Shown one piece after another: positions 12,727 through 24,087 of a stretch of DNA of 64,000 bases (position 1 is the stretch's first letter; every line of letters starts with the position of its first letter). The translations under genes and the position numbers were made by a program. The stretch comes from Ostreococcus lucimarinus (Eukaryota), in the NCBI GenBank assembly GCA_000092065.1, contig CP000601.1; one strand, given 5' to 3'. Under the pieces are notes generated by a model. The model made no database searches, was not told the DNA's origin, and was given only the letters and a program-made list of their open reading frames with translations.

Positions 12727-13383
12727 TTAGAACAGCGCGGAGCCGCCCATGATCTTTTCGACGATCGGCAACGCGACGAGACCGATCATCGCACCGCGAC
12801 CGTTCGTCATCTCCGCCTCCGCGCGGAACGGCCCGAACGCCTCGGGCGCCTCGTCCAAGCCGTTCGGCGACGACTTCTTGAGCGCCGGCGCCAAAGAGGA
12901 CGCCAAGGTCAAGATCACGCAGGCCGGCACGAGGAAGAACCCGGCCGCCGGGTACGTGGACGTGCGCGTGATGCCGTCCGCGAGCGTGAACGTGCGTTCG
13001 TTGAACAATTGGTGCATGAAGCTCGTGTTCGACGTCAGCTCCACGTAGAGCGCCGCCGTCCACCCAATCATCGCCGCGCGACCGTTGATCGTCTCCACCG
13101 CGCGCGAGTCCTTGAACGCGAGCATGACGGAGTCGAGCATGGAGTTATCGTTCCCGAGCGGCGCCGCTTCGGCGATGGAGCCGTCGGCCGGGTCGATCGC
13201 GTCGACGCGCATCGTCGGCTGCTTGGACGCCGCGTCGGCATCCTTCCACTCGGAGTTCGCCTCTTCGACCGCCTTGGAGACGTCGTTTTCGGCGCGGACC
13301 GCGACGGAGGCGCGGCGGTGCGCGCGCTGCGTCTTGACGACGGCGCGGGCGGCGAGTTGGGGGCGAGTCGTGACGGCGAACAT
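12727..13383 (-). CDS. Light-harvesting-like (ELIP/LIL family) chlorophyll-binding protein, chloroplast
   Basis: Two LHC motifs, ETINGRAAMIGW and EMTNGRGAMIGL, in predicted helices. Transit-peptide-like N-terminus from MFAVTTRP. Confidence 0.7.
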   Translation of the reverse strand: MFAVTTRPQLAARAVVKTQRAHRRASVAVRAENDVSKAVEEANSEWKDADAASKQPTMRVDAIDPADGSIAEAAPLGNDNSMLDSVMLAFKDSRAVETINGRAAMIGWTAALYVELTSNTSFMHQLFNERTFTLADGITRTSTYPAAGFFLVPACVILTLASSLAPALKKSSPNGLDEAPEAFGPFRAEAEMTNGRGAMIGLVALPIVEKIMGGSALF

Positions 13384-13766
13384 GTCGTGCGTGCGTGTGC
13401 GAGAGTGACGCGATGCGGCGCGCCGTCGACGGTGACGTCGAATTTTGTCATTTTCGCGCGTCACTGTTTACGCATACGAGCGGTCGGTCGCGCGACACGA
13501 ATCGTCGACGTCGACGGTTCGCGCGTGACGTCACGCGACCGCGCGACGAAACGCGCGGTCGCCGCGGTCGACGCGGTCGACGCGCGCGCGGTCGGAGGCG
13601 AGGCGTCGGCGTCGGCGTCGCGCGCGACGCGCGAAGCCCGCGGGGCGCGCGGCGAAGGGCGCGGCGAGACGCGACGGTGCGCGCGACGACGCGATGGACG
13701 CTTTATGACTTTATGGGTCCTCGGGACGAGGGGGCGAATGTTACAAGTTTGAGCGATGCGCGCGAT

Positions 13767-15947
13767 TCATCGCCCGTCGCAGACGTCCGCGACGTCGTCC
13801 GGTCGTCCGACGATGACGTCTTCGCGGTCGATGGTGACCATGCCGAGCCTGGCGCCCTTGGGCTTTTTCACGTACTTAGGAGACGTGTACGAAACGTTGA
13901 CTTTGCCGCCCGTTCTCACTTTCGAATGAAAGCTCGCGACGTTGGCGGCGAATTGGATGTCGTCGTCTGAGGCGGTTTCGCCTGGTTGTTGGCGAAGGAT
14001 GACGTGCGCGCCCGGGGCGCCGCGAACGTGAAACCACACGTCTTGGTCTTGTCCGAAGAAAAGCGAAACCGCTTCGTTTCCGCGGCTATTTCTTCCGCAG
14101 TACACCTCCTTTCCACTCGGCGCGGTATAGATGCGAATGGCGTTCATCATCTCTTGCTTACGCGCTTGCTTACCGGTTTTCGGCTTCGCGCCGCCGCCCT
14201 TCTTCGCCGCCGCCATCGCGCGCGTCTTCGCGTCGGCGCCCTTGCCCGTGGGCTTTAAGAATCCACCGTCCACGAGTTCGGCGCCAATTTCCTCGATGAA
14301 CAATAAATCGTCGCGCGATTTGAACTCGCTGACTTCGAGAATACTAAATTCGACGCCCTCTAAATACTCAATCTCGCTCGCATTTTGTTCGATGAGCGGC
14401 TCGACGGCGTCGGCGGTGCGACGCAGCTTTCTCGTCTTTTTGTACAGCGCCTCGGCGGTGCCCACAGGACCTTTCTCGGGATCTACTTTAAACATCACTG
14501 TCTCGCCCGTGGTGAAGTCTTGACCCTCAAGCTCGCTCGAACCAGGCTTATAGTTGTAACTGTACGCCATCAACGCGTCGGCGAGCAGTTGAATTTCTTC
14601 GTGCCCGCTCGCCGCCTCTAATTGCTTGCGGAACCCAACGTCTTTGCTCGCCAACTTTTTCAGACGCGCGCGCACGGCTTGTAAAATGCGCGAGCGTTCG
14701 CGCTCGAACACGTCGGTTTCGCCCGCTTCGCCGTACACAGCGCCGAAAAGAGCGCCGATCGGCCCGCCGGCAACGCTCAAATCGTCGGCGGCGGGCGGCA
14801 AGACGACGCCCGCGGACGACGGGTGCAATAACAACTGCCCGAACTCTTCGCACCACGTGGCGTTTGCGAGCGTACCCGCACTGTCGGCATCACTTGAAAC
14901 GCTCGCAATCCATCGCATGAACTCATCGTACACGGCGACCCAATCGCTCGCACTCGCGGTTTCGACGCGCTCGCCATCGGCGACGCCCGCGCCGCGAATC
15001 AACGCCTTGGCCAAAGCCGGTGACACCCCTCGAAACGCGCGCACCATGCACTCATCCAAACGCGCTTCGCCCATATCACCACTGCGACCGCGTGCGACGT
15101 CGCGCAACACCGCGGTCCATCCGTCCACGCCCCCTTCAACCCCGGTCGTGGGATCGATCCCGGGCGCCGAGGGCGGCGGCTCGTACGCGTACCCGATCGC
15201 CAATCGCCGCACACTCGTCTGTTTCTCCCCAACCTGATACCCACACGCTAAAACTTCATCATTATTTTTACTATCAAGCAAGAACGCGTTGCTGTACCGC
15301 CCCATGACCTCACACAACAGCTCGTACTCTGCCTCACCTCCCGGCCTATCGCCGAATCGCAACCGACACGCGCGTTCCCACGCCGTCCCCACGCGCGCAT
15401 CCAGCAGCACCTTCCCCTTGAGCAGCGCGTTCGCGCTCTCGCCAAAACTAAGATTCATCCCCTTCTCCACCTTGGCCCCGCGCGCGCTCATCGCGACGTG
15501 CGCGGTCACCGGGTGCCAACTCACTCGCACGCTCCGCCGTCCATCCGCCGCGCGCGCGTCCAGCGTCATCGAGTGCGCGTCCACCTGCGCGCACGCGTCG
15601 ATCTTCACCGGCGTCGACAGCGCGTTTATCTCCCGCACGCTCGCGACGAGGGCGGTGTAATCGAACGTCGCGGGCGTCGCGCGCGCGGCGCGAACGACGA
15701 CGAGCGAGCGGCGGTGACGCGGCGACGGCGCGCGCCGCGGCGACGCGAGCGACGCGATGCGCCAACGCGCGCGCGCGGGGATGCGTGACGCGCGGTACAT
15801 GACGCCGAGCGCGGGCGCGGGCGGGCCGCGGGCGCGCCGCGGGCGGACGCGCGCGAGGGAAAGTGAGGACGCGGCGCGAGCGGGACGCGAAGCGTCTCGG
15901 CGAAAGGTTCGGCGCGCGAATGAATATCTGGCGATGAGCGTTGACAC
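13767..15947 (-). CDS. NFACT-family protein (bacterial FbpA/RqcH-like): NFACT-N plus NFACT-R/DUF814, probably organelle-targeted
   Basis: N-terminal FbpA-like domain (FDYTALVASVREIN...). C-terminal DUF814 with WFHVRGAPGAHVIL and the GKVNVSYTSPKYVKKPKG motif. Arg/Ala/Ser-rich presequence. 726 aa, bacterial-sized rather than NEMF-sized. Confidence 0.7.
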   Translation of the reverse strand: MSTLIARYSFARRTFRRDASRPARAASSLSLARVRPRRARGPPAPALGVMYRASRIPARARWRIASLASPRRAPSPRHRRSLVVVRAARATPATFDYTALVASVREINALSTPVKIDACAQVDAHSMTLDARAADGRRSVRVSWHPVTAHVAMSARGAKVEKGMNLSFGESANALLKGKVLLDARVGTAWERACRLRFGDRPGGEAEYELLCEVMGRYSNAFLLDSKNNDEVLACGYQVGEKQTSVRRLAIGYAYEPPPSAPGIDPTTGVEGGVDGWTAVLRDVARGRSGDMGEARLDECMVRAFRGVSPALAKALIRGAGVADGERVETASASDWVAVYDEFMRWIASVSSDADSAGTLANATWCEEFGQLLLHPSSAGVVLPPAADDLSVAGGPIGALFGAVYGEAGETDVFERERSRILQAVRARLKKLASKDVGFRKQLEAASGHEEIQLLADALMAYSYNYKPGSSELEGQDFTTGETVMFKVDPEKGPVGTAEALYKKTRKLRRTADAVEPLIEQNASEIEYLEGVEFSILEVSEFKSRDDLLFIEEIGAELVDGGFLKPTGKGADAKTRAMAAAKKGGGAKPKTGKQARKQEMMNAIRIYTAPSGKEVYCGRNSRGNEAVSLFFGQDQDVWFHVRGAPGAHVILRQQPGETASDDDIQFAANVASFHSKVRTGGKVNVSYTSPKYVKKPKGARLGMVTIDREDVIVGRPDDVADVCDGR

Positions 15948-15977: not shown

Positions 15978-17108
15978 CTAGGATGTCTTGGCCGATTTCG
16001 GGGTGACTTCCTCGGCGCGCGTCTCGCGAAGGAAGACGCGGTCTTCGGGCTTGTTGTTCTCTCGCTCTTCGTGCGCGTACGAAGACGCGATGGCGAGCAA
16101 GGACCCACAAGGACTGAAAGCGAGCGCTGAGATGGAGGTGGGGTAGCGGGGCGACTGAAAAAGTCGCTTTTTAGCGTCGCCATCCCAAAAATTGACGTAA
16201 CCGTCGCCGCCGCCCGTGGCGAATGTGCCGTGGACGGGATGAAACGCCACCGCGTGGACGGGATAAACAATCTCACCCACGCTCGCGTCATCGGTTTTGC
16301 GATGACACTTGAACGCATATTTTCGCTTGTCGTTCTCTTCATCGCGTATGAACTCCACCGCTACGCGTCCCTCGACGCTCGCGGCCACGAATCCATCGCC
16401 TCGGATATTTGCTGCGATGGCGCGCGTTTGAAACCGCATGCTCGAACGTCTATTTATCAACGGACGCGGCGGCGCTTCCGACGCGCGTCGTCCGTCATCA
16501 CCATCCACACCGCGCACTAAATCTCGCGTCTCGTACGCCAAAACTTGCCCATCGCTCGTCGCCACGAAAATCTTACCGTCTCTCAAATCCGCCGCGTAGC
16601 ACTTCCCAGCCGTCTTCGTCGTCGACACCGCGCGCCCTCGCTCGTCCTTCGTCAAATCCCACGCCCTAATCGTTCGATCCCAGCCAAACGTAAACAATTT
16701 CTTCGTCGCATCATCGTACTCCACCGCCGACACCGCGCCGTCGTCGTGCGCGCCGACGACGCGAAACGCGCCAGTTTTAAAATCGACGAGGCGCACCGAC
16801 CCGTCGAGGCATCCCACGCACGCCGCGTCCTCATCCGTCCCGACGAACGTCCCGCACAGCGCGGGCGCGCCCAAATCGATCGAGTTCAACGATTTCACGT
16901 CCCCGATCTCGCGCGCGCGGCACGCGTACCGCCGCGCGGTCCCGTCCCAGGACGTCACCAGGAGCGTCAACCGTCGCGCCATCCCATCGTCGTCGTCGTC
17001 GCGACCCTCTCCCGCGCTGACCGCGCAGAACCGCACCGCGCTGACGCCGTCGCCGAACGCCGCGCCTCCGGCCCCTCGCACGTCGCGACCGAGGTCTCGA
17101 TGCGCCAT
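15978..17108 (-). CDS. BUB3: WD40 mitotic checkpoint protein of the BUB3 (BUB3/RAE1) family
   Basis: YAFKCHR...VYPVHAVAFHPVHGTFATGGGDGYVNFWDGDAKKRLFQSPRYPTSISALAFS...LLAIASSY, which closely resembles plant BUB3. Confidence 0.75.
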   Translation of the reverse strand: MAHRDLGRDVRGAGGAAFGDGVSAVRFCAVSAGEGRDDDDDGMARRLTLLVTSWDGTARRYACRAREIGDVKSLNSIDLGAPALCGTFVGTDEDAACVGCLDGSVRLVDFKTGAFRVVGAHDDGAVSAVEYDDATKKLFTFGWDRTIRAWDLTKDERGRAVSTTKTAGKCYAADLRDGKIFVATSDGQVLAYETRDLVRGVDGDDGRRASEAPPRPLINRRSSMRFQTRAIAANIRGDGFVAASVEGRVAVEFIRDEENDKRKYAFKCHRKTDDASVGEIVYPVHAVAFHPVHGTFATGGGDGYVNFWDGDAKKRLFQSPRYPTSISALAFSPCGSLLAIASSYAHEERENNKPEDRVFLRETRAEEVTPKSAKTS

Positions 17109-17324: not shown

Positions 17325-20300
17325 GTGCGAGCGCGTCTCGCGCGGGCGTCGCGCGCGCACCGCATTTCGCGACGGCGGTCGATGCGGGCCCCGTCGCGCG
17401 CGCCGTGCGCGTCCGCGCGCCCGGAGGCCGGCGTCGTCGACGCCCTCGATGATCTCGCCGCCGTCGACGCCCGCGCGTGCGGCATCGGCAAGCTCACGAT
17501 CGCGCACGACGACGACGACGACGACGCGCGAGGTCTCCGCCATCGCGACCGCGGCGCGTTCGCCCTCGATTTGCGCGCGTGGTCGTTCACCGCGCGCACG
17601 CAGCCGGTCCGCGCGCTCGGGGCGTGCGCGCGAGACGCGTCCGTCGACATGCGCGTGCCGTTCAGGGACGAATACGAGCGACACAGGGCGTCGCGACCGG
17701 ACGAACGCGCGCCGCGAGGGGCGAGTTGGCGCATCCATCGAGTGCGAGGATGGCGCTTCGACCTGCGCGCGCTGTACGAGGAGGTGAAAAGACGCGGTGG
17801 CGCGGACGCGATCGATGGAAATCAAGGCTGGCGCGAGGTCGCGGAGGCGATCGGGGCGCACGGACGCGGATGCGCGGCGGGACACGCGGCGAGAGCGCTG
17901 CACGGGGCGTGGCTGGAGGCGTTCGCGCGCGACGCCAAGCGAAGAGAAGACGCGGTGAAGAGCGCGCAGTTCGACGCGGTGAAGGGAGAGATCGAACAAG
18001 ATGACGCGCTGGCGATCGATGCGCTGTGTGGGCTCGAATTTGGGGCGTCGGGCGCGCCCGAACGGCGAGTCAAGGTGGAAAATGTGCGTAATTCGTGCCA
18101 TATCTTCTTCGCGCGGGACCGGGATGACGGCGAATCGCACGCGTTCGCGGCGCGTGCGACGCGCGCGCGCGATGATGGGCGTCGCGATGACGTGCGACTG
18201 ACTTTTACGGCGCGTGTTTTCGCGACGCAGGGCCTCGATCTCGTCGCCTCGCAGCTCGCGGACGCGCCCGAGGGCGACGCCGACTGCGACGTGTGCGGCG
18301 CGAGCGGGAACGAAGACGCGATGATCCTGTGCGATGGGTGCGATCGAGGGTGCGTATACGACAATGCCACGCGAGAACGCGCGCGTGAAAATTATCTCGA
18401 TCGTTCGGACGCGCGTTCGGGGAGAGAGAGCGCTCGCGCGGCGCGCGAGGGCGCGGCGAACGCGCGCGTGGGCGACGGTTAGACGTGGGGTTTAGAGGCG
18501 CGCGGGGGAGAAGGAGCCGCGAAGGAGCGACGAGACTGACGAATGATGCGCGCGTAGGTCACATATGTACTGCTTAACGCCGAAGATGACTGAAGTGCCG
18601 AGTGGAGAGTGGTTTTGTGGACGATGCGAAGAGATTGACGCGGAGGTGGAGCGATTGAGCGCGGATGAAGGGACGCAGTTTACGCTCGGCGATTTCAACG
18701 AGGCGTGCATAGAATTTGATACGGCGTTCTTTGGCGAGGACGCCAAGCGAACTGGGATCGATATGCAGGTGATTGAGGAGTGTTTCTGGCGAATGGTTGA
18801 AGATGCGAGCTCGGTGGATGATGTTTGCGAGGTCAAATGCGGCACGGCGATTGACACGACAAAGTACGGAAGCGGGTTCCCGAGACACGGCGAAGCGCTT
18901 CAGGTAAAGATTGACGGCGTGAGCCCGGAATCTATCAAGCGCTGGTCAGAGTCGAAATGGAATCTCAACAACGTCGCGCGCGCGAGTGGGGAAAAGTCGT
19001 CGCTACTGGGCGCGTTGAAGGATGACGTGGCGGGCGTGACGACGCCATTCTTAGAAGTCGGAAGCACGTTTAGTTCCACGACTTGGCGTCGAGAAGAGCA
19101 TAACATGTACAGTATCACTTACAATCACTGGGGTGCCGCGAAACTGTGGTACTGCGTGCCGGCGAGTGCAGCGGACAAGTTGGAAGAATGCTTCCAGAAG
19201 GTGATGCCCGACGTCTACGAGGCGCACGTCAACGATTTGGGAAGCGTCTTTACGATGCTCTCGCCGAGCTTCTTGATGAGCGCGGGAGTGCCCGTGCACA
19301 CGTTGGAGCAATTCCCAGGAGAATACGTGGTGACGTATCCCGGGGCGTACTACGCGTCGTTCAACTGTGGATTGAACTGCACGGAGAGCGTCAACTTTGT
19401 GCCCGCTGACTGGCTCCCAGAGGGCTCGGCGAGCGTGGAGAGAAACCGATCGTACGCCAAGCGTTCATTGTTTAGTCACGACGAGTTGGTTTGCAGAGTA
19501 GCAAACAATCCTAGTTCGAGCATAGCGCCGCACTTGTGGCCCGAGATTGCGCGCTTGTACGCTGAAGAGGCAAACGGTCGCGCCGAGCTTTTCGCGTCTG
19601 GCGTGACGCGCAGCGCGCAAATGACGTCAGCAGACGACGACGACGACGACGATGGCTGCGAAAAGCCTCGTAAAGTACGATCTAGGTTTGACGATGCATC
19701 GAACTCTGGATCCGATGAGTGCGTTGTTTGTCGACACATTTTGTACTCGTCTGGCGTCGGGTGCTCGTGCGACGAGACGCGCAAGGCGTGCTTGCGACAC
19801 GTCAACGACTTGTGCAAATGTGCGATGTCGAAGAAGACGATGTTTTACAGAGAAACAGTGGCTGATTTAGAAAGTCTGGTGAAGAAGACGGAGAAGGCGC
19901 TTTCTCAGAAGGAACTAGCCAGCTTAAAATCCAAGCACAGCGACTTGGACTCAGTCACAGTGAACAAGAATCTCGTCAAGAAGGCTCAGGCTTGGGTGAA
20001 ACGAGTGGGCGAAGAGCTCGTCAAACCACCTTTGCCGCCGCTGGACAAGATGAGAAATTTACTCGCTGCGGGTGAAGAGTTTATTTGGGGTGGTGCTGAT
20101 ATGAAGGCGGCTCGAGAAGCGTACACTCGCGTGACGAACGCCGTCGCGTGGCAGACGAGTCTTGTGGCGCTGAAGCAAAGGCTTGGATCCAGTGCTGGTG
20201 CCGAGGCCGCGCACGATGACGCTGGTGAAGCGCGATTGAGATTGAACAGACTAAAAGAGCTCCTTGACAACCCACCGGTACCGATGCCTAAGGCTGATAC

Positions 20301-23300
20301 TCAACCTTTCCGCGATTTGCTCGCGGCGGGCTTGAAATTGGAGGAACGCATCAAGGCGGCTCTCGCCGAGGTACCGAATCCATCTCCTCGCGCTTGTACG
20401 ACGCTTCAAACTGAAGCGAATAAGTTTGGTGTGGAAGTCCCTTCATATAAAAAGCTGAAGGACGTCATCGTTAGAGCAGGCGCGTGGTCCACGAAGGTGC
20501 GCGGCGCGCTTCCAGGACGACGACAACTCCCGCCGCGCGAGGAACTAGCGAATGCTCGAGAGATCGAGGCGTTATACGAAGAGGCGCATGGATTACCCGT
20601 TCAGCAGAGCGAACTCTTGACTTTGCGCAAATCTTTAGAAGAGTTGAATTTTTGGCGCGCAAAGTCTGAGTCGCTGTTCGTCGCCAAGGTTGACGTGGAA
20701 GAAGCCGAGGCGCTTCTCAAGGAGGGCATGGCGTTGTCAACAAAACTCGACGAGGTCGACAGACTAGCCGATCAAATCAAAGCTGTCAAAGTGTGGGCCG
20801 ATCATGCTCGAGCGAGTGATTATCCGGGAGCAAGAGTGACGGATTTGCACATGCTTCTCGTCGAGGGTGAAAAGTTTAGCGTGCGAGTGGACGAAGTCGA
20901 GTGGTTGCGAAACCGTATCGTCGTCCGGGAGCTGGCAGAGAAATTGAAGGACATGGTTTCATCGAAGAAATATCCGCTCGCCGAAGTCGAAGCGGCCGTG
21001 CGGGCGGGTAACGAGTTCCTCGACTCCGAAGATAAAGAGGTTGCCCCAGATGAAGAAGCGCTGCTGGCGCAGTGCGAGAGCCACATCAACGCGGCGAAGA
21101 AGTGGAACGAGCGCGCGGCGGTGATGCTCAAATCTCTCGATAGTAAGGACCGACCGTCACTCGAAGACGCCGCGTCGCTCATCCGCGAAGGAAGCTCGAT
21201 TCCAATCTTTCTGAATGGATTCGACGTGCTTTCAGAAGCGGTCAATGTAGCCAAGTCTTGGTTGGATCGTGCACAACCTTGTTTGAAGGGAAAGCAGCTC
21301 ACTCGTCGCGGTGTGTCAAATCCGATTCCGCCGCTTTCCGAGGCGCAAGAGCTCATGAAAGAGTCTTCGAACTTGAAATTGTTTGTCAAGGAAGTTGAAG
21401 CTTTGGAAGAACGCGTCGAAGCCGCAGAAGAGTGGGACGTGGACGCGAAGGACGCCATCGAGCGCTGGCGAGAAGACGGCGCCGAGGTGACGTTGACCGA
21501 GCTTGAACTTTCGCACGAAGACTTTGGATTAGAATTACCAGCCATGGAGACAGTTCGCATTCGTTTAAAGTCGCTCAAGTGGGAAGAACGCGTCGCTAAG
21601 ATCATTGCACCCAAGGCGAAGCTCGTCGAGGACACCGTTTTGGACGAGCTCAGGGAAGAAATCGACGTGCTTCAAGACTTGAAAGAGGATCTTGTCGCTG
21701 AAATCATGAAACGGTACACGATTGTGGACGAATGGCGCAAGAAAGCGGATCGTTTGCTCGATCCTCCTCTCCTTGAAGACGGTCGATTGGCTCCGAGTGC
21801 ATCACCGGAGGAAATAGACGCCCTCATCGCCGAAGGCAAGGCACTTCCCGCTGACGTCTCGAAGGTAGAAGACCTCGAGGCGTCGTTGGCGGATCACGCA
21901 CAGTGGGTCGACACCGTTCGTAAGTGCTTGAACAGTGTCGCTGAAGGTCGATCTCGCCCTTCGATTGACGAATTATACGATCTTCTAGCGGAGGTGGAAG
22001 ATTTGACCTTCAAGTGCTCAGAGAGACAAGCGCTCACAAATGCGTGCAACGCCGCCACGGCGTGGACGGAGAGGCTCAACGCGTTGCTCTGGGCAAACGA
22101 TCAGGGTGAAGTCAAACAAGAAAAAACGCTTATCGAAATGTTGAGCAATGTTCTTGATTCCATCAAAGCTGGTGTGGAAGACATCACCGGGACTGGCGAA
22201 CCGCCGGAGACGGAGGAGGGTTAGTTCTGCCTTTGTCGACAAGCTGGAGGAATTCAAATGGTTGGATGTGATGATTGCGGTGACTGGTATCACTTAAAAT
22301 GTATCAATGTGACGCCTACTATGGCAAAGACGATGCACAATTACATCTGTCCGCCATGCATCGCGAAGAGTGGCAAGGCGAGCGCACTCTCGTTGGATAC
22401 GTATCGCTCGGTGCATCGCACCAATCGCCCAAACGTCATGCTTTTGCGAGAACTCCTCGGTGAAGCGCAGCGATTTCCTGGAGAAGTGCCAGAAGAAGCC
22501 GTGTTGAATCAAGTCATCAATACTCACGACGCGTGGCGATTGGAAGTACGAAAGACTTTGCATAGAAAGAGTATGAAGGAAGCACACGACAACGCCATCA
22601 GTCAAGCTTCGAAGATTGCCCAAGAAGCAGCGATGAGAGAATCTGAGGAACGCACACGACGAATCGCCGAAGCGTCGCTCGCGGCGACTGCAGAGAACCC
22701 CAATCCTCCAGCTTCTCTCACGCCATTACAGCAAGTCATGCTGATGGGTCAAGCTGTCACGTTCGCCGCAACGCAGCGCACGCACGCGTTGAACATTTCG
22801 CCGTGTTCGCAGGAGATTTCAGATGTCGTCACAAAGCAGCTCGGGCAACTTCAACAGCTCGCCATGCAACTCGCGATGTGCCAAGCTCAAATTCACATGG
22901 CTCCAGTTCGGTCTAGGCCCCACATCCTCCACGTCTTGATGATGCAGCAACAGCATCTAAAGATGACAAACGAGCACGAGGAAGAGCTGGCAAATGTTGG
23001 CGCTAGCAACTGGCTCATGGAAGCGACTCTGCAACTATCTGGAATGTCTGGCATGATGCCGCCGCCGACGGCGCAAGACACCGGCAAAGAACCTTCAACA
23101 TCCACGGGTCATGGTAGTCCAAGCGATATGTCTGCTCAGTTGAAGACGAACGAACCGATGATGGTTCCGCAGCAGTTCATGTTGCAACCGGCCATGCCAT
23201 CGCTTGTCGGCGACGCGTCTGGAATGCCCAAGCAAGAGATGGATTACACGTATGACATTCCTCGAAAAGATAATGTCGATCCAGCGCTGCAAGTGTACGC

Positions 23301-24087
23301 GGGCATGAAGGGTGCTCTGGCGATGGAGCTGGAACCTGTTGAGGAGACGCTCGCGTTGATGCGCGAAGTGTGCGGTCCGGCGTGGAGAGAACAAGCCACG
23401 CGGCTCATGACTGGTGCGCCGTTCCCGAGGTTGATCAAGCTTCACGAGCTCAAGGAATCTGCCATGGCTGCTGGTCTTTGCCCTGGTGCCGGCATTGATC
23501 CTTTGGCCGATCGCGCGCACGCGTTGGAGGTTGCTGGACAAATCTGGCTCGAACGCGCCGCCGCCGTCGTGCAAGACAAAACGATTCCTATCGAGGCGGC
23601 GCAGTTGCTGCTTCAAGAGGGTCGATCTTTGCCTTTATACTTGAAGGAGGAGCTCGAGGAGTTGGGAGAGCGATGCGAACTGTATTGCGTTTGCCGAAGC
23701 GCGTACGACGCTCTCAGGCCGATGATTTGCTGCGATCGATGCGATGGTTGGTTTCATTACGAGTGCATCGGCATGCAGTCGCCGGCGCCGGGCGAGGAAG
23801 ACGAAAACGCCGAAAACGTCAAGTTTGCCTGCCCAGAGTGCTGCGCGGCGCAAGGTATTCCGTACGTTCCGTTCCGTCCAGCGCCGAAGGACACGGACAA
23901 AGCGCCGGAGCGAGCCGCGCCTCCGCCGGCTGAAGAAGCTCCGGAGCCGCCAAAGACGGAAGAAGAAGCGAAGCCGCCCGCTAAACCAGAACCGGAAGTC
24001 GCGGACAACAAGAAGAAACGAAAAACGGTGGAGCCGACTCCGCCTGCTAATAAAAGTACCTCTAGTCGCAGCAGAAGACGAAAGTAG
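17325..24087 (+). CDS. KDM5/JARID1-type histone H3K4 demethylase (ARID, PHD1, JmjC, C5HC2 ZnF, PLU-1-like, PHD2, PHD3). It has one intron (18359..18557) and one in-frame TAG at 22222-22224
   Basis: ARID (WRFDLRALYEEVKRRGG...GWREV). PHD1 is split by the intron (CDVCG...LCDGCDRG | SHMYCLTPKMTEVPSGEWFCGRC). JmjC (HWGAAKLWYCVP...YVVTYPGAYYASFNCG). C5HC2 finger. C-terminal PHDs FCLCRQ...MVGCDDCGDWYHLKC...YICPPC and LYCVCR...MICCDRCDGWFHYEC...FACPEC. The three ORFs 17325.., 18565.. and 22258.. belong to a single gene. Confidence 0.8.
18359..18557 (+). other. Spliceosomal intron (199 nt, phase 2) inside PHD1 of the KDM5 gene
   Basis: GG|GTGCGTATAC ... GAGACTGACGAA ... GCGCGTAG|G. Splicing reconstitutes the PHD finger CDGCDRG-SHMYC across the frame change. 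Confidence 0.8.

What the first reader, a model, noticed from the sequence alone, without database searches (positions are those of the whole stretch)
13767..15947. Nuclear-encoded bacterial-type NFACT (FbpA/RqcH-like) protein with an organelle-type presequence
The protein has NFACT-N plus NFACT-R/DUF814 (WFHVRGAPGAHVIL, VSYTSPKYVKKPKG) in a bacterial-sized architecture, not the long coiled-coil NEMF/Rqc2 form, and is preceded by an Arg/Ala/Ser-rich extension. Bacterial RqcH adds Ala tails to stalled 50S-bound nascent chains. A nuclear copy with a transit-like presequence suggests ribosome-associated quality control operating in the plastid or mitochondrion, which is little characterised.
Basis: partly seen in the sequence, partly recalled or inferred. 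Interest (0 to 1): 0.55.

Follow-up and report, generated by a model that had tools for sequence, protein, structure and literature searches.

The report
Cyanobacterial-type RqcH with plastid leader
A nuclear gene of the green alga Ostreococcus lucimarinus encodes a ribosome-rescue protein (RqcH) inherited from cyanobacteria and fitted with an organelle-import leader, which suggests that chloroplasts of algae and mosses keep the bacterial alanine-tailing step that Arabidopsis is reported to lack.

Summary
The ORF is real. The true CDS is 13767-15800 (-), 677 aa from the first ATG. The protein is a full-length bacterial-type RqcH with NFACT-N, HhH, coiled-coil/M and NFACT-R domains and no NFACT-C. 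A family profile matches B. subtilis RqcH at E=7e-102 over its whole length, but human NEMF only at 8e-9 over about 120 N-terminal residues. The tRNA-Ala motif residues are kept: D47, E142-R143 (Bacillaceae D97-R98, the B. subtilis numbering) and E164-V-M. The nearest bacterial relatives are cyanobacteria. In NJ trees, algal plus cyanobacterial sequences split from all other bacteria in 200/200 bootstraps. Orthologues occur only in plastid-bearing eukaryotes among those I could name: green algae, Klebsormidium, mosses, a red alga, Vitrella and Mallomonas. All full-length ones carry N-terminal extensions. Those from complex-plastid lineages start with a signal peptide, in Vitrella and one unnamed relative followed by Phe. 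No vascular-plant hit appeared, and a 2025 preprint reports no bacterial-like RqcH in Arabidopsis. The best reading is a plastid RqcH that adds Ala tails to nascent chains stuck on split 50S subunits. Localisation and activity are inferred, not shown. It is a new member of a known kind, of moderate interest.

The parts
13767..15800 (-). Complete intronless CDS of the RqcH-like protein (677 aa plus stop), Ostreococcus lucimarinus CCE9901 nuclear genome
   Evidence: The ORF is and the first ATG. It has the same start and length as P0001 and is identical to NCBI protein P0002 outside two stretches spliced out of that model. Against L081 there are no indels, with 50 synonymous and 15 non-synonymous codon differences in the mature part.
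15801..15947 (-).
   Evidence: There are 3-nt and 16-nt indels against L081 and the frame is not conserved. The upstream WD40 gene ends at 15978.
15666..15800 (-). 45-aa organelle-type presequence MYRASRIPARARWRIASLASPRRAPSPRHRRSLVVVRAARATPAT; inferred plastid transit peptide with a possible V-R-A processing site
   Evidence: Composition is. pLDDT is about 30, i.e. predicted disordered. It lies upstream of the residue that aligns to bacterial residue 3-5. It is kept in frame in P0001 with 3 of 45 substitutions. The neighbouring LHC-like protein has a similar ...SVAVRA|E end.
14235..15662 (-). Pfam NFACT_N match (NFACT-N, HhH and coiled-coil/middle domains), residues 47-522 of the 677-aa protein
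   Evidence: Pfam PF05833, E=1.2e-91; coordinates checked by translation.
15372..15377 (-). E142-R143, which aligns to D97-R98 of four Bacillaceae RqcH sequences (the numbering published for the B. subtilis tRNA-Ala-selecting DR motif)
   Evidence: Aligned to D97-R98 of four Bacillaceae RqcH. The motif is E-R in all three cyanobacteria displayed, and [ED] at this position in all 13 cyanobacterial rows. R is invariant in all 66 sequences. The function of the DR motif is from PMC8373112.
15303..15311 (-). E164-V165-M166, which aligns to E121-[IM]-M123 of the same four Bacillaceae RqcH sequences, followed by G-R-x-S-N
   Evidence: E164 is invariant in all 66 sequences.
14334..14720 (-). Two long coiled-coil helices flanking a small beta-hairpin M domain (residues 361-489)
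   Evidence: AlphaFold model: helices 361-397 and 444-489, strands 423-427 and 434-438, pLDDT about 85-90. Foldseek's best matches are B. subtilis RqcH on the 50S subunit.
13854..14129 (-). NFACT-R (DUF814) domain, residues 558-649, containing WFHVRGAPGAHVIL and VSYTSPKYVKKPKG
   Evidence: Pfam PF05670 E=2.2e-8 and PF18297 E=3.2e-5. W589, H591, G597 and H599 are invariant in all 66 sequences, and P596 in 63 of 66.

Best explanation
This is a nuclear gene, acquired from the cyanobacterial ancestor of the plastid, for a bacterial-type RqcH that is imported into the chloroplast of Ostreococcus.

Proposed mechanism, with each step marked.

(1) The 45-aa basic, acid-free presequence directs import and is removed near ...VVVRA|A. 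This is inferred.

(2) Collided or stalled plastid 70S ribosomes are split, probably by the cyanobacterial-type MutS2 proteins reported in plastids. This is from the literature, not tested here.

(3) The mature protein binds the 50S subunit that still holds peptidyl-tRNA. Its NFACT-N/HhH head, which keeps D47, E142-R143 and E164-V-M, selects plastid tRNA-Ala. The coiled-coil/M and NFACT-R parts hold the subunit and the P-site tRNA. This is inferred from homology and fold match to B. subtilis RqcH-50S structures.

(4) Together with an S4-domain partner it adds an mRNA-independent C-terminal poly-alanine tail. The partner is more likely the YlmH/Sll1252 type than RqcP, because about half of the cyanobacterial genomes analysed pair RqcH with YlmH and have no RqcP or Hsp15. 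This is inferred.

(5) The tail marks the truncated protein for a stromal protease. Clp is the obvious candidate.

Green plastids have no tmRNA/SmpB, so this would be their main way to tag aborted chains.
For: Domain content and size are bacterial. Pfam gives NFACT_N 1.2e-91 plus NFACT-R and no NFACT-C, and the protein ends 28 residues after NFACT-R.

The family profile matches B. subtilis RqcH at E=7e-102 over residues 2-562, but NEMF only at 8e-9 over about 120 residues. With the single sequence, NEMF and Rqc2 are not found even at E<=10.

The AlphaFold model (pLDDT 78) shows the NFACT-N / HhH / CC-M / NFACT-R order. Foldseek's top five hits are RqcH on the 50S subunit (E=1e-32 to 1e-22), ahead of NEMF (2e-20) and Rqc2 (2e-15).

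The motifs needed for tRNA-Ala selection align exactly to D97-R98 and E121-x-M123 of Bacillaceae RqcH. The role of the DR motif is from PMC8373112.

Cyanobacterial ancestry. The top bacterial-length hits among 1.84e9 representatives are a Cyanophyceae MAG (2.7e-77), Synechococcus PCC 7336 (2.2e-75) and a Gloeobacterales bin (3e-69). Firmicute loci in the genome scan reach only 1e-39 to 1e-30. With the moss orthologue as query, cyanobacteria score about 1e-127 and Bacillaceae about 1e-46. NJ bootstrap support for (eukaryotes + cyanobacteria | other bacteria) is 100/100 and 200/200.

The gene is nuclear and under selection. It has the same GC as its neighbours, lies among eukaryotic genes (CCT, KDM5-like, WD40), keeps synteny in two other Ostreococcus contigs, and shows 50 synonymous against 15 non-synonymous codon differences.

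Targeting. All 17 eukaryotic orthologues whose domain start could be located, including this protein, have a 30-214 aa extension poor in D/E in nearly all, and the sampled bacterial proteins start within a few residues of the conserved domain. The Vitrella and Mallomonas orthologues and four unnamed relatives start with a hydrophobic signal peptide (max Kyte-Doolittle 2.65-3.8); in Vitrella (..GAS|F) and unnamed P0084 (..SHA|F) it is followed by Phe. This is the bipartite form used for complex plastids, not for mitochondria.

All named eukaryotic carriers are plastid-bearing.

Context from papers. Green plastids lack tmRNA (PMC6514570; 10.1101/2025.09.02.673837). Plastid MutS2 acts in ribosome rescue (same preprint). 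Half of cyanobacteria pair RqcH with YlmH and have no RqcP (10.1101/2024.03.03.583159). YlmH/Sll1252 homologues exist in Chlamydomonas and Arabidopsis (PMC10743179).
Against: No targeting predictor and no localisation data could be used. I found nothing for Chlamydomonas Cre14.g627150 in the searchable full texts, and nothing for that gene number or NFACT in the held supplements of the chloroplast protein atlas preprint or the plastid/mitochondrial atlas paper.

The presequence composition is not specific here, because the non-coding 49 codons upstream translate into similar R/A/S-rich sequence. An Arg two residues before the putative cut (V-R-A|A) also fits mitochondrial processing. Dual targeting cannot be excluded.

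The S4-domain partner, MutS2 and plastid tRNA-Ala of Ostreococcus itself were not checked.

Arabidopsis plastids do without RqcH, so the step is dispensable in at least one green lineage.

The trees are distance trees without an archaeal/NEMF outgroup. Eukaryote monophyly is unresolved (51/200).
Confidence: 0.7

Rival explanations
1. The protein is a bacterial-type RqcH that is imported into mitochondria, or into both organelles, and serves mitoribosome quality control.
For: The presequence is Arg-rich, free of acidic residues and has net charge +12, with Arg at -2 of a possible cleavage site. This fits mitochondrial presequences as well. Green-algal transit peptides and presequences are hard to tell apart (own knowledge). 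No predictor was run.
Against: The ancestry is cyanobacterial, not alphaproteobacterial. All named eukaryotic carriers have plastids. Orthologues in complex-plastid algae begin with an ER signal peptide plus a transit-like region, which is the plastid route. The presequence has four prolines in 45 residues, which is unfavourable for one long amphipathic helix (sequence).
Confidence: 0.12
2. The protein is plastid-located but no longer makes Ala tails. It would use the NFACT scaffold for something else, such as sensing or holding obstructed 50S subunits, blocking subunit re-joining, or another RNA-related role.
For: D97 is replaced by Glu, as in cyanobacteria. Some orthologues have lost motif residues: Vitrella has N-R and V-Q, and 5 of 18 eukaryotic sequences have Q at the M166 position. 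No plastid ClpX is known to read the tail (own knowledge). Angiosperm plastids lack the protein. The S4 partner in Ostreococcus was not verified.
Against: In the Ostreococcus protein every motif residue tested is present. [DE]-R also occurs as E-R in 8 of 14 non-cyanobacterial bacterial sequences sampled, so Glu is a normal variant. The whole architecture is kept under purifying selection.
Confidence: 0.13
3. The protein is a cytosolic NEMF/Rqc2 paralogue acting on 60S subunits.
For: It belongs to the same superfamily. Foldseek also finds NEMF (2e-20) and Rqc2 (2e-15).
Against: There is no NFACT-C domain and the size is bacterial. The profile scores 7e-102 against RqcH and 8e-9 against NEMF. 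It lies in the cyanobacterial clade with 200/200 support. An N-terminal presequence is present. A separate Zn-knuckle NEMF is mentioned for Ostreococcus in PMC4075521.
Confidence: 0.02
4. The gene is bacterial contamination, or a recent lineage-specific horizontal transfer unrelated to the plastid.
For: The protein looks bacterial and the gene has no introns.
Against: The gene is embedded between eukaryotic nuclear genes with the same GC content. The gene order is syntenic in two other Ostreococcus assemblies. Orthologues are on chromosomes of Micromonas, Chlamydomonas, Sphagnum, Physcomitrium and Klebsormidium. It has a eukaryote-specific presequence.
Confidence: 0.01

Closest known systems
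Bacillus subtilis RqcH (YloA), with structures 7AQC, 7AS8, 7OPE and 8S1U
   Same: It has the same domain order (NFACT-N, HhH, coiled coil with M hairpin, NFACT-R), no NFACT-C, and a similar mature length (about 630 against 570 aa). The profile match is full length at E=7e-102. The residues that align to D97-R98 and E121-x-M123 of close Bacillaceae relatives (the published B. subtilis numbering) are conserved. It is the best structural match.
   Different: Identity to the Bacillaceae RqcH sequences compared is only about 23-25%. D97 is Glu. The gene is nuclear and carries a 45-aa import leader. There are Mamiellophyceae-specific insertions in the HhH-to-coiled-coil linker. The likely partner is YlmH-type rather than RqcP. 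The Ala-tail reader, ClpXP in Bacillus, is not known for plastids.
Cyanobacterial RqcH (for example Synechococcus PCC 7336 WP_017326483.1, a Gloeobacterales bin, Fischerella); annotated but not studied experimentally as far as I could find
   Same: These are the closest bacterial relatives, at 30-33% identity over conserved columns. They share the P-W-E-R-V and E-x-M-G-[RK]-Y-S-N signatures and the N-terminal (M)QP-x-D-[FL]-T-T-L start.
   Different: They have no presequence and are encoded in a bacterial genome.
Eukaryotic NEMF / Rqc2 / Arabidopsis EMB1441 (cytosolic RQC)
   Same: It shares the NFACT-N and NFACT-R domains and probably the same chemistry, namely template-free C-terminal tailing on the large subunit.
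   Different: NEMF is about 1000 aa, has NFACT-C (plus a Zn knuckle in plants), works on 60S subunits with Listerin, and descends from the archaeal form (PMC4075521). The window protein lacks all of these features.
Plant plastid MutS2A/MutS2B (10.1101/2025.09.02.673837)
   Same: These are also cyanobacterium-derived, nuclear-encoded factors assigned to plastid ribosome rescue. They are the expected upstream splitting step of the same pathway.
   Different: They belong to an unrelated protein family. They are present in Arabidopsis, whereas the RqcH orthologue is not.

Membership tests
Bacterial RqcH (Rqc2 homolog, FbpA/YloA family) | Architecture NFACT-N + HhH + coiled coil/M + NFACT-R, without NFACT-C | tested here: met
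   Pfam hits and the absence of PF11923-type NFACT-C. Secondary-structure order in the AlphaFold model. Foldseek top hits are RqcH chains.
Bacterial RqcH (Rqc2 homolog, FbpA/YloA family) | Full-length sequence homology to experimentally characterised RqcH | tested here: met
   The single sequence scores E=3.7e-37. The family profile scores E=7e-102 over RqcH residues 2-562.
Bacterial RqcH (Rqc2 homolog, FbpA/YloA family) | NFACT-N residues needed for tRNA-Ala selection (D97-R98, and E121-I-M123 in B. subtilis) | tested here: met
   E142-R143 and E164-V-M166 align to these positions in four Bacillaceae orthologues with the same numbering. D-to-E is the normal state in cyanobacteria and in many other bacteria.
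Bacterial RqcH (Rqc2 homolog, FbpA/YloA family) | Binds 50S-peptidyl-tRNA and adds poly-Ala tails | not testable with these tools
   This needs biochemistry or mass spectrometry.
Bacterial RqcH (Rqc2 homolog, FbpA/YloA family) | S4-domain cofactor (RqcP or YlmH) encoded in the same organism | not tested
The literature shows YlmH/Sll1252 homologues in Chlamydomonas and Arabidopsis (PMC10743179).
Eukaryotic NEMF/Rqc2 | C-terminal NFACT-C (DUF3441) domain and archaeal-type ancestry | tested here: not met
   There is no NFACT-C hit, and the protein ends 28 aa after NFACT-R. NEMF matches only at E=8e-9 over about 120 residues. The protein lies in the cyanobacterial clade with 200/200 support.
Nuclear genes of cyanobacterial (endosymbiotic) origin for plastid proteins | Cyanobacteria are the closest prokaryotic relatives | tested here: met
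   (E-value gap of 30-80 orders of magnitude to other bacteria). (100/100 and 200/200 bootstrap).
Nuclear genes of cyanobacterial (endosymbiotic) origin for plastid proteins | N-terminal transit peptide on the Ostreococcus protein | tested here: inconclusive
   A 45-aa basic, acid-free, disordered extension is present and kept in frame. Plastid and mitochondrial signals cannot be separated without a trained predictor, and composition is non-specific in this GC-rich genome.
Nuclear genes of cyanobacterial (endosymbiotic) origin for plastid proteins | Orthologues in complex-plastid lineages carry bipartite (signal peptide + transit peptide) leaders | tested here: met
   Vitrella MNRCVLALVYPLVLLLFLFF...GAS|F, Mallomonas, and unnamed P0084 (MRPLLLLLLLLLLLPVLLHISHA|F), P0096, P0103 and P0074. 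Judged by hydrophobicity and by eye, not by SignalP or ASAFind.
Nuclear genes of cyanobacterial (endosymbiotic) origin for plastid proteins | Experimental plastid localisation | not testable with these tools
   Nothing was found for the Chlamydomonas orthologue in the searchable papers or held supplements.

The most novel reading that the evidence does not exclude
Plastids of algae and bryophytes run a complete cyanobacterial-type ribosome-associated quality control: MutS2 splitting, then RqcH plus a YlmH-type S4 protein, then poly-Ala tailing, then stromal proteolysis. In the tmRNA-less green lineage this would be the only system that tags aborted plastid-encoded proteins. It would have been lost on the way to vascular or seed plants, which would explain why no RqcH step can be found in Arabidopsis plastids.
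Probability: 0.45. Interest if true: 0.65.

Novelty: new member of a known kind. Interest (0 to 1): 0.5.

Why it matters
Work on plastid ribosome rescue has only just begun. The 2025 MutS2 preprint states that the other players in plastids are entirely uncharacterised and that Arabidopsis has no bacterial-like RqcH or RqcP.

This gene and its orthologues in Chlamydomonas (CHLRE_14g627150), Physcomitrium, Klebsormidium, red algae and complex-plastid algae show that the candidate for the downstream factor exists in many plastid-bearing lineages. Several of these are genetically tractable.

That makes three questions directly testable. Do organelles make alanine tails? What reads those tails without ClpX? 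Why could vascular plants drop the step?

The gene is also a clean example of an endosymbiotic-transfer gene retained in some lineages and lost in others. In addition, it corrects a public gene model.

Tried and rejected
(1) The GTG start at 15947 given by the ORF lister is rejected. The first ATG is at 15800 and the upstream frame is broken by indels in a close relative.

(2) Presequence composition as proof of targeting is rejected as insufficient, because the non-coding upstream frame looks the same.

(3) The genome-contig scan was biased by its two peptide patterns. It returned only picocyanobacteria (26% identity) and Firmicutes at nearly equal E-values and was not decisive alone. The exhaustive HMMER search plus name look-ups resolved the question.

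(4) The alignment-seeded word search returned almost only Mamiellophyceae and added no taxa.

(5) I looked for localisation or interactome evidence for the Chlamydomonas orthologue in three places. The chloroplast-ribosome interactome paper has no mention and no held supplements. The plastid/mitochondrial atlas supplements gave nothing. The chloroplast protein atlas supplements gave nothing for the gene number or for NFACT. A full-text search for Cre14.g627150 found no papers.

(6) I searched the literature for any description of a plastid RqcH using RqcH with chloroplast, NFACT with plastid, Rqc2 with plastid and algae, and Chlamydomonas, Physcomitrium and RqcH. Only the MutS2 preprint was relevant, and it reports absence in Arabidopsis.

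(7) I could not obtain the Ostreococcus cytosolic NEMF, YlmH or MutS2.

(8) No maximum-likelihood tree software was available. I used NJ on Kimura-corrected distances with bootstrap instead.
Full report
**What is there**

The stop-to-stop frame 13767-15947 on the minus strand is real. The ORF lister starts it at a GTG, but the window is eukaryotic nuclear DNA. It has 53-68% GC and carries neighbours such as a CCT chaperonin subunit, a KDM5-like ARID/JmjC/PHD set, a WD40 protein, a NUDIX hydrolase and an LHC-like protein.

The first ATG is codon 50 (window 15800). That start gives 677 aa, the length of the environmental protein P0001 (97% identical), which begins at the same Met, as does the NCBI protein of Ostreococcus lucimarinus CCE9901 (P0002). 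P0002 is identical to the window translation except for two stretches spliced out of that model, so the window is O. lucimarinus CCE9901.

Comparison with the syntenic contig L081 shows a 3-nt and a 16-nt indel in the 147 nt upstream of the ATG. The 2034-nt CDS has none, and its mature part shows 50 synonymous against 15 non-synonymous codon differences. The CDS is therefore 13767-15800, is intronless and is under purifying selection.

**What the protein is**

Pfam finds NFACT_N (E=1.2e-91), which covers the NFACT-N, HhH and coiled-coil/middle parts, and NFACT-R (2.2e-8). It finds no NFACT-C, and the protein ends 28 residues after NFACT-R.

Against all PDB sequences, the single protein hits B. 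subtilis RqcH at about 4e-37 and finds no NEMF or Rqc2 even at E<=10. A profile of nine family members hits RqcH at 7e-102 over residues 2-562. It hits human NEMF only at 8e-9 over about 120 N-terminal residues.

An AlphaFold model (mean pLDDT 78) shows the following parts:
- a disordered segment at residues 1-41
- a beta-rich NFACT-N domain
- helical HhH modules
- two long helices (361-397 and 444-489) flanking a small hairpin
- an alpha/beta NFACT-R domain

Foldseek's five best PDB matches are RqcH bound to 50S subunits (1e-32 to 1e-22), ahead of NEMF (2e-20) and yeast Rqc2 (2e-15).

The functional residues align as follows:
- E142-R143 aligns to D97-R98 of four Bacillaceae orthologues.
- E164-V-M166 aligns to E121-[IM]-M123 of the same orthologues.
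- D47 aligns to D4.

The DR pair is the motif whose mutation abolishes tRNA-Ala selection and tailing (PMC8373112). Glu at the first position is the usual state in cyanobacteria (12 of 13 sampled). It also occurs in 8 of 14 other bacteria sampled, so it is a normal variant.

**Where it comes from**

An exhaustive HMMER search of 1.84 billion cluster representatives gave 10,079 hits. After the Mamiellophyceae, the list contains two kinds of protein at 1e-98 to 1e-45:
- proteins of 650-950 aa whose match starts 40-215 residues in
- proteins of about 575-595 aa whose match starts at residue 3-5

Name look-ups identified the second kind as cyanobacteria: a Cyanophyceae MAG at 2.7e-77, Synechococcus PCC 7336 at 2.2e-75 and a Gloeobacterales bin at 3e-69.

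The first kind are algae and plants: Pedinophyceae, Vitrella brassicaformis, MMETSP transcripts, Chlamydomonas reinhardtii CHLRE_14g627150, Sphagnum magellanicum, the red alga Hildenbrandia rubra, the synurophyte Mallomonas annulata and Flechtneria.

Searching with the Sphagnum protein returned, in order:
- other mosses (S. fallax, Ceratodon, Physcomitrium)
- Klebsormidium
- about 90 further proteins at 1e-134 to 1e-95 and 36-41% identity, every named bacterial one a cyanobacterium, with three algal sequences among them
- Bacillaceae at about 1e-46

No vascular plant was listed.

NJ trees on columns with at least 80% occupancy separate (eukaryotes + cyanobacteria) from all named other bacteria. 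Support is 100/100 with 66 sequences and 200/200 with 49 named sequences. Relationships inside that group are unresolved. Eukaryote monophyly has 51/200 support, so one transfer followed by spread with secondary plastids is likely but not shown.

**Targeting**

The extension ahead of the conserved F-D-Y-T start is 45 aa, with 27% Arg, 22% Ala, no Asp or Glu and net charge +12. It is predicted disordered and is kept in frame in the close relative, with 3 of 45 substitutions. It ends ...SLVVVRA|ARATPAT. This resembles the ...SVAVRA|E end of the leader of the neighbouring LHC-like protein, which must be plastidial.

Composition alone is weak evidence. The non-coding upstream frame is equally Arg/Ala/Ser-rich, and an Arg at -2 also suits mitochondrial processing.

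The comparative pattern carries the weight. All 17 eukaryotic orthologues whose domain start could be located, including this protein, have an extension of 30-214 aa. The sampled bacterial proteins start within a few residues of the conserved domain.

Orthologues from lineages with complex plastids start with a strongly hydrophobic signal peptide followed by a transit-like stretch, and in Vitrella and P0084 a Phe follows the signal peptide. Examples are Vitrella MNRCVLALVYPLVLLLFLFF...GAS|F, unnamed P0084 MRPLLLLLLLLLLLPVLLHISHA|F, and Mallomonas. That bipartite form is the route into complex plastids, not into mitochondria.

Three lines of evidence point the same way: cyanobacterial ancestry, occurrence only in plastid-bearing taxa among those named, and these bipartite leaders. 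Together they make the plastid the most likely destination. Mitochondrial or dual targeting is not excluded for Ostreococcus itself.

**How it most likely works**

By homology with the B. subtilis system, the mature protein would bind plastid 50S subunits that retain peptidyl-tRNA after a stalled ribosome has been split. Its NFACT-N/HhH head would recruit plastid tRNA-Ala to the A site. It would then drive template-free addition of alanines.

In bacteria this needs an S4-domain processivity factor. About half of the cyanobacterial genomes analysed pair RqcH with YlmH (Sll1252) and have no RqcP or Hsp15 (10.1101/2024.03.03.583159). Sll1252 homologues are reported in Chlamydomonas and Arabidopsis (PMC10743179).

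The splitting step is plausibly carried out by the cyanobacterial-type MutS2 proteins. These are now implicated in plastid ribosome rescue, and in Chlamydomonas they co-purify with plastid ribosomes (10.1101/2025.09.02.673837).

Green plastids have no tmRNA/SmpB (PMC6514570), so an Ala tail would be their only known C-terminal degron tag.

Everything after 'the protein has the RqcH architecture and motifs' is inference. Binding, tailing, the partner in Ostreococcus and the protease that reads the tail are untested.

**Comparison with what is known, and novelty**

The family and its mechanism are well known in bacteria. The protein is auto-annotated as 'NFACT RNA-binding domain-containing protein' by UniRef, and some environmental relatives as 'YloA/Tae2 family protein' by JGI, so it is not a new kind of protein.

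In the searchable literature I found no description of an organellar RqcH. The one paper that looks for it reports a single eukaryotic-type Rqc2 (EMB1441), no bacterial-like RqcH and no RqcP in Arabidopsis. It calls the rest of plastid RQC uncharacterised.

The data here add four points:
- The cyanobacterial RqcH was transferred to the nucleus.
- It is retained with plastid-type leaders across green algae, Klebsormidium, mosses, a red alga and algae with secondary plastids.
- It was not found in vascular plants in my search, which was limited by the word index.
- Tractable organisms (Chlamydomonas, Physcomitrium) carry it.

I rate it a new member of a known kind, of moderate interest.

**Limits**

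- No targeting predictor was available.
- There is no outgroup-rooted maximum-likelihood tree.
- Only a minority of database hits carry organism names, so the taxonomic statements rest on about 16 named eukaryotes.
- The Ostreococcus NEMF, YlmH, MutS2 and plastid tRNA-Ala were not verified directly. NEMF is taken from PMC4075521.

Noticed in passing
window 13767-15800 (-); NCBI protein P0002: The public O. lucimarinus gene model (634 aa) removes two in-frame stretches as introns: QLLLHPSSAGVVLPPAADDLS, and VDGGFLKPTGKGADAKTRAMAAAK. Both are conserved in other Mamiellophyceae, and the second aligns to B. subtilis RqcH (ELVEGKYLRP). The uninterrupted 677-aa ORF is the better model.
   Followed up: partly
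window 15801-15947: The non-coding leader between the upstream WD40 gene's stop (15978) and the ATG translates in frame into Arg/Ala/Ser-rich sequence that looks like a transit peptide. This is a warning that such composition arises by chance in this GC-rich genome.
   Followed up: yes
window 12727-13464 (-): The next gene downstream encodes a small LHC-like (chlorophyll a/b-binding family) protein whose N-terminal leader ends ...SVAVRA|E. It served as a local example of a plastid transit peptide. The order WD40 - rqcH - LHC-like - NUDIX - short-chain dehydrogenase is kept in two other Ostreococcus contigs (L081, L082).
   Followed up: partly
window 17325-24087 (+): Three consecutive same-strand ORFs carry ARID (17325-18482), JmjC + zf-C5HC2 + PLU-1 (18565-22224) and PHD (22258-24087). 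Together they make up the domain set of a KDM5/JARID1 histone demethylase. They may be one gene with short introns or frame changes.
   Followed up: no
locus L004 (CALPNT020000005.1, labelled Bifidobacterium breve MAG): This contig carries an rqcH that clusters tightly with freshwater Synechococcus/Cyanobium sequences, next to Synechococcus UW140. It is probably a mis-binned cyanobacterial contig.
   Followed up: no
P0060 (Chlamydomonas CHLRE_14g627150v5), P0064 (Vitrella): The Chlamydomonas orthologue is 941 aa with a 214-aa Ala/Ser-rich N-terminal extension. The Vitrella orthologue has N-R instead of [DE]-R and V-Q instead of x-M at the tRNA-Ala motifs, so tail specificity or activity may differ in some lineages.
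   Followed up: no
one search hit list (query Sphagnum P0045): Mosses (Sphagnum, Ceratodon, Physcomitrium) and Klebsormidium have the plastid-type RqcH, but no vascular plant appeared among the 120 best hits. Together with the reported absence in Arabidopsis, this suggests loss within land plants. Arabidopsis still keeps the YlmH/Sll1252 homologue AT1G53120.
   Followed up: partly
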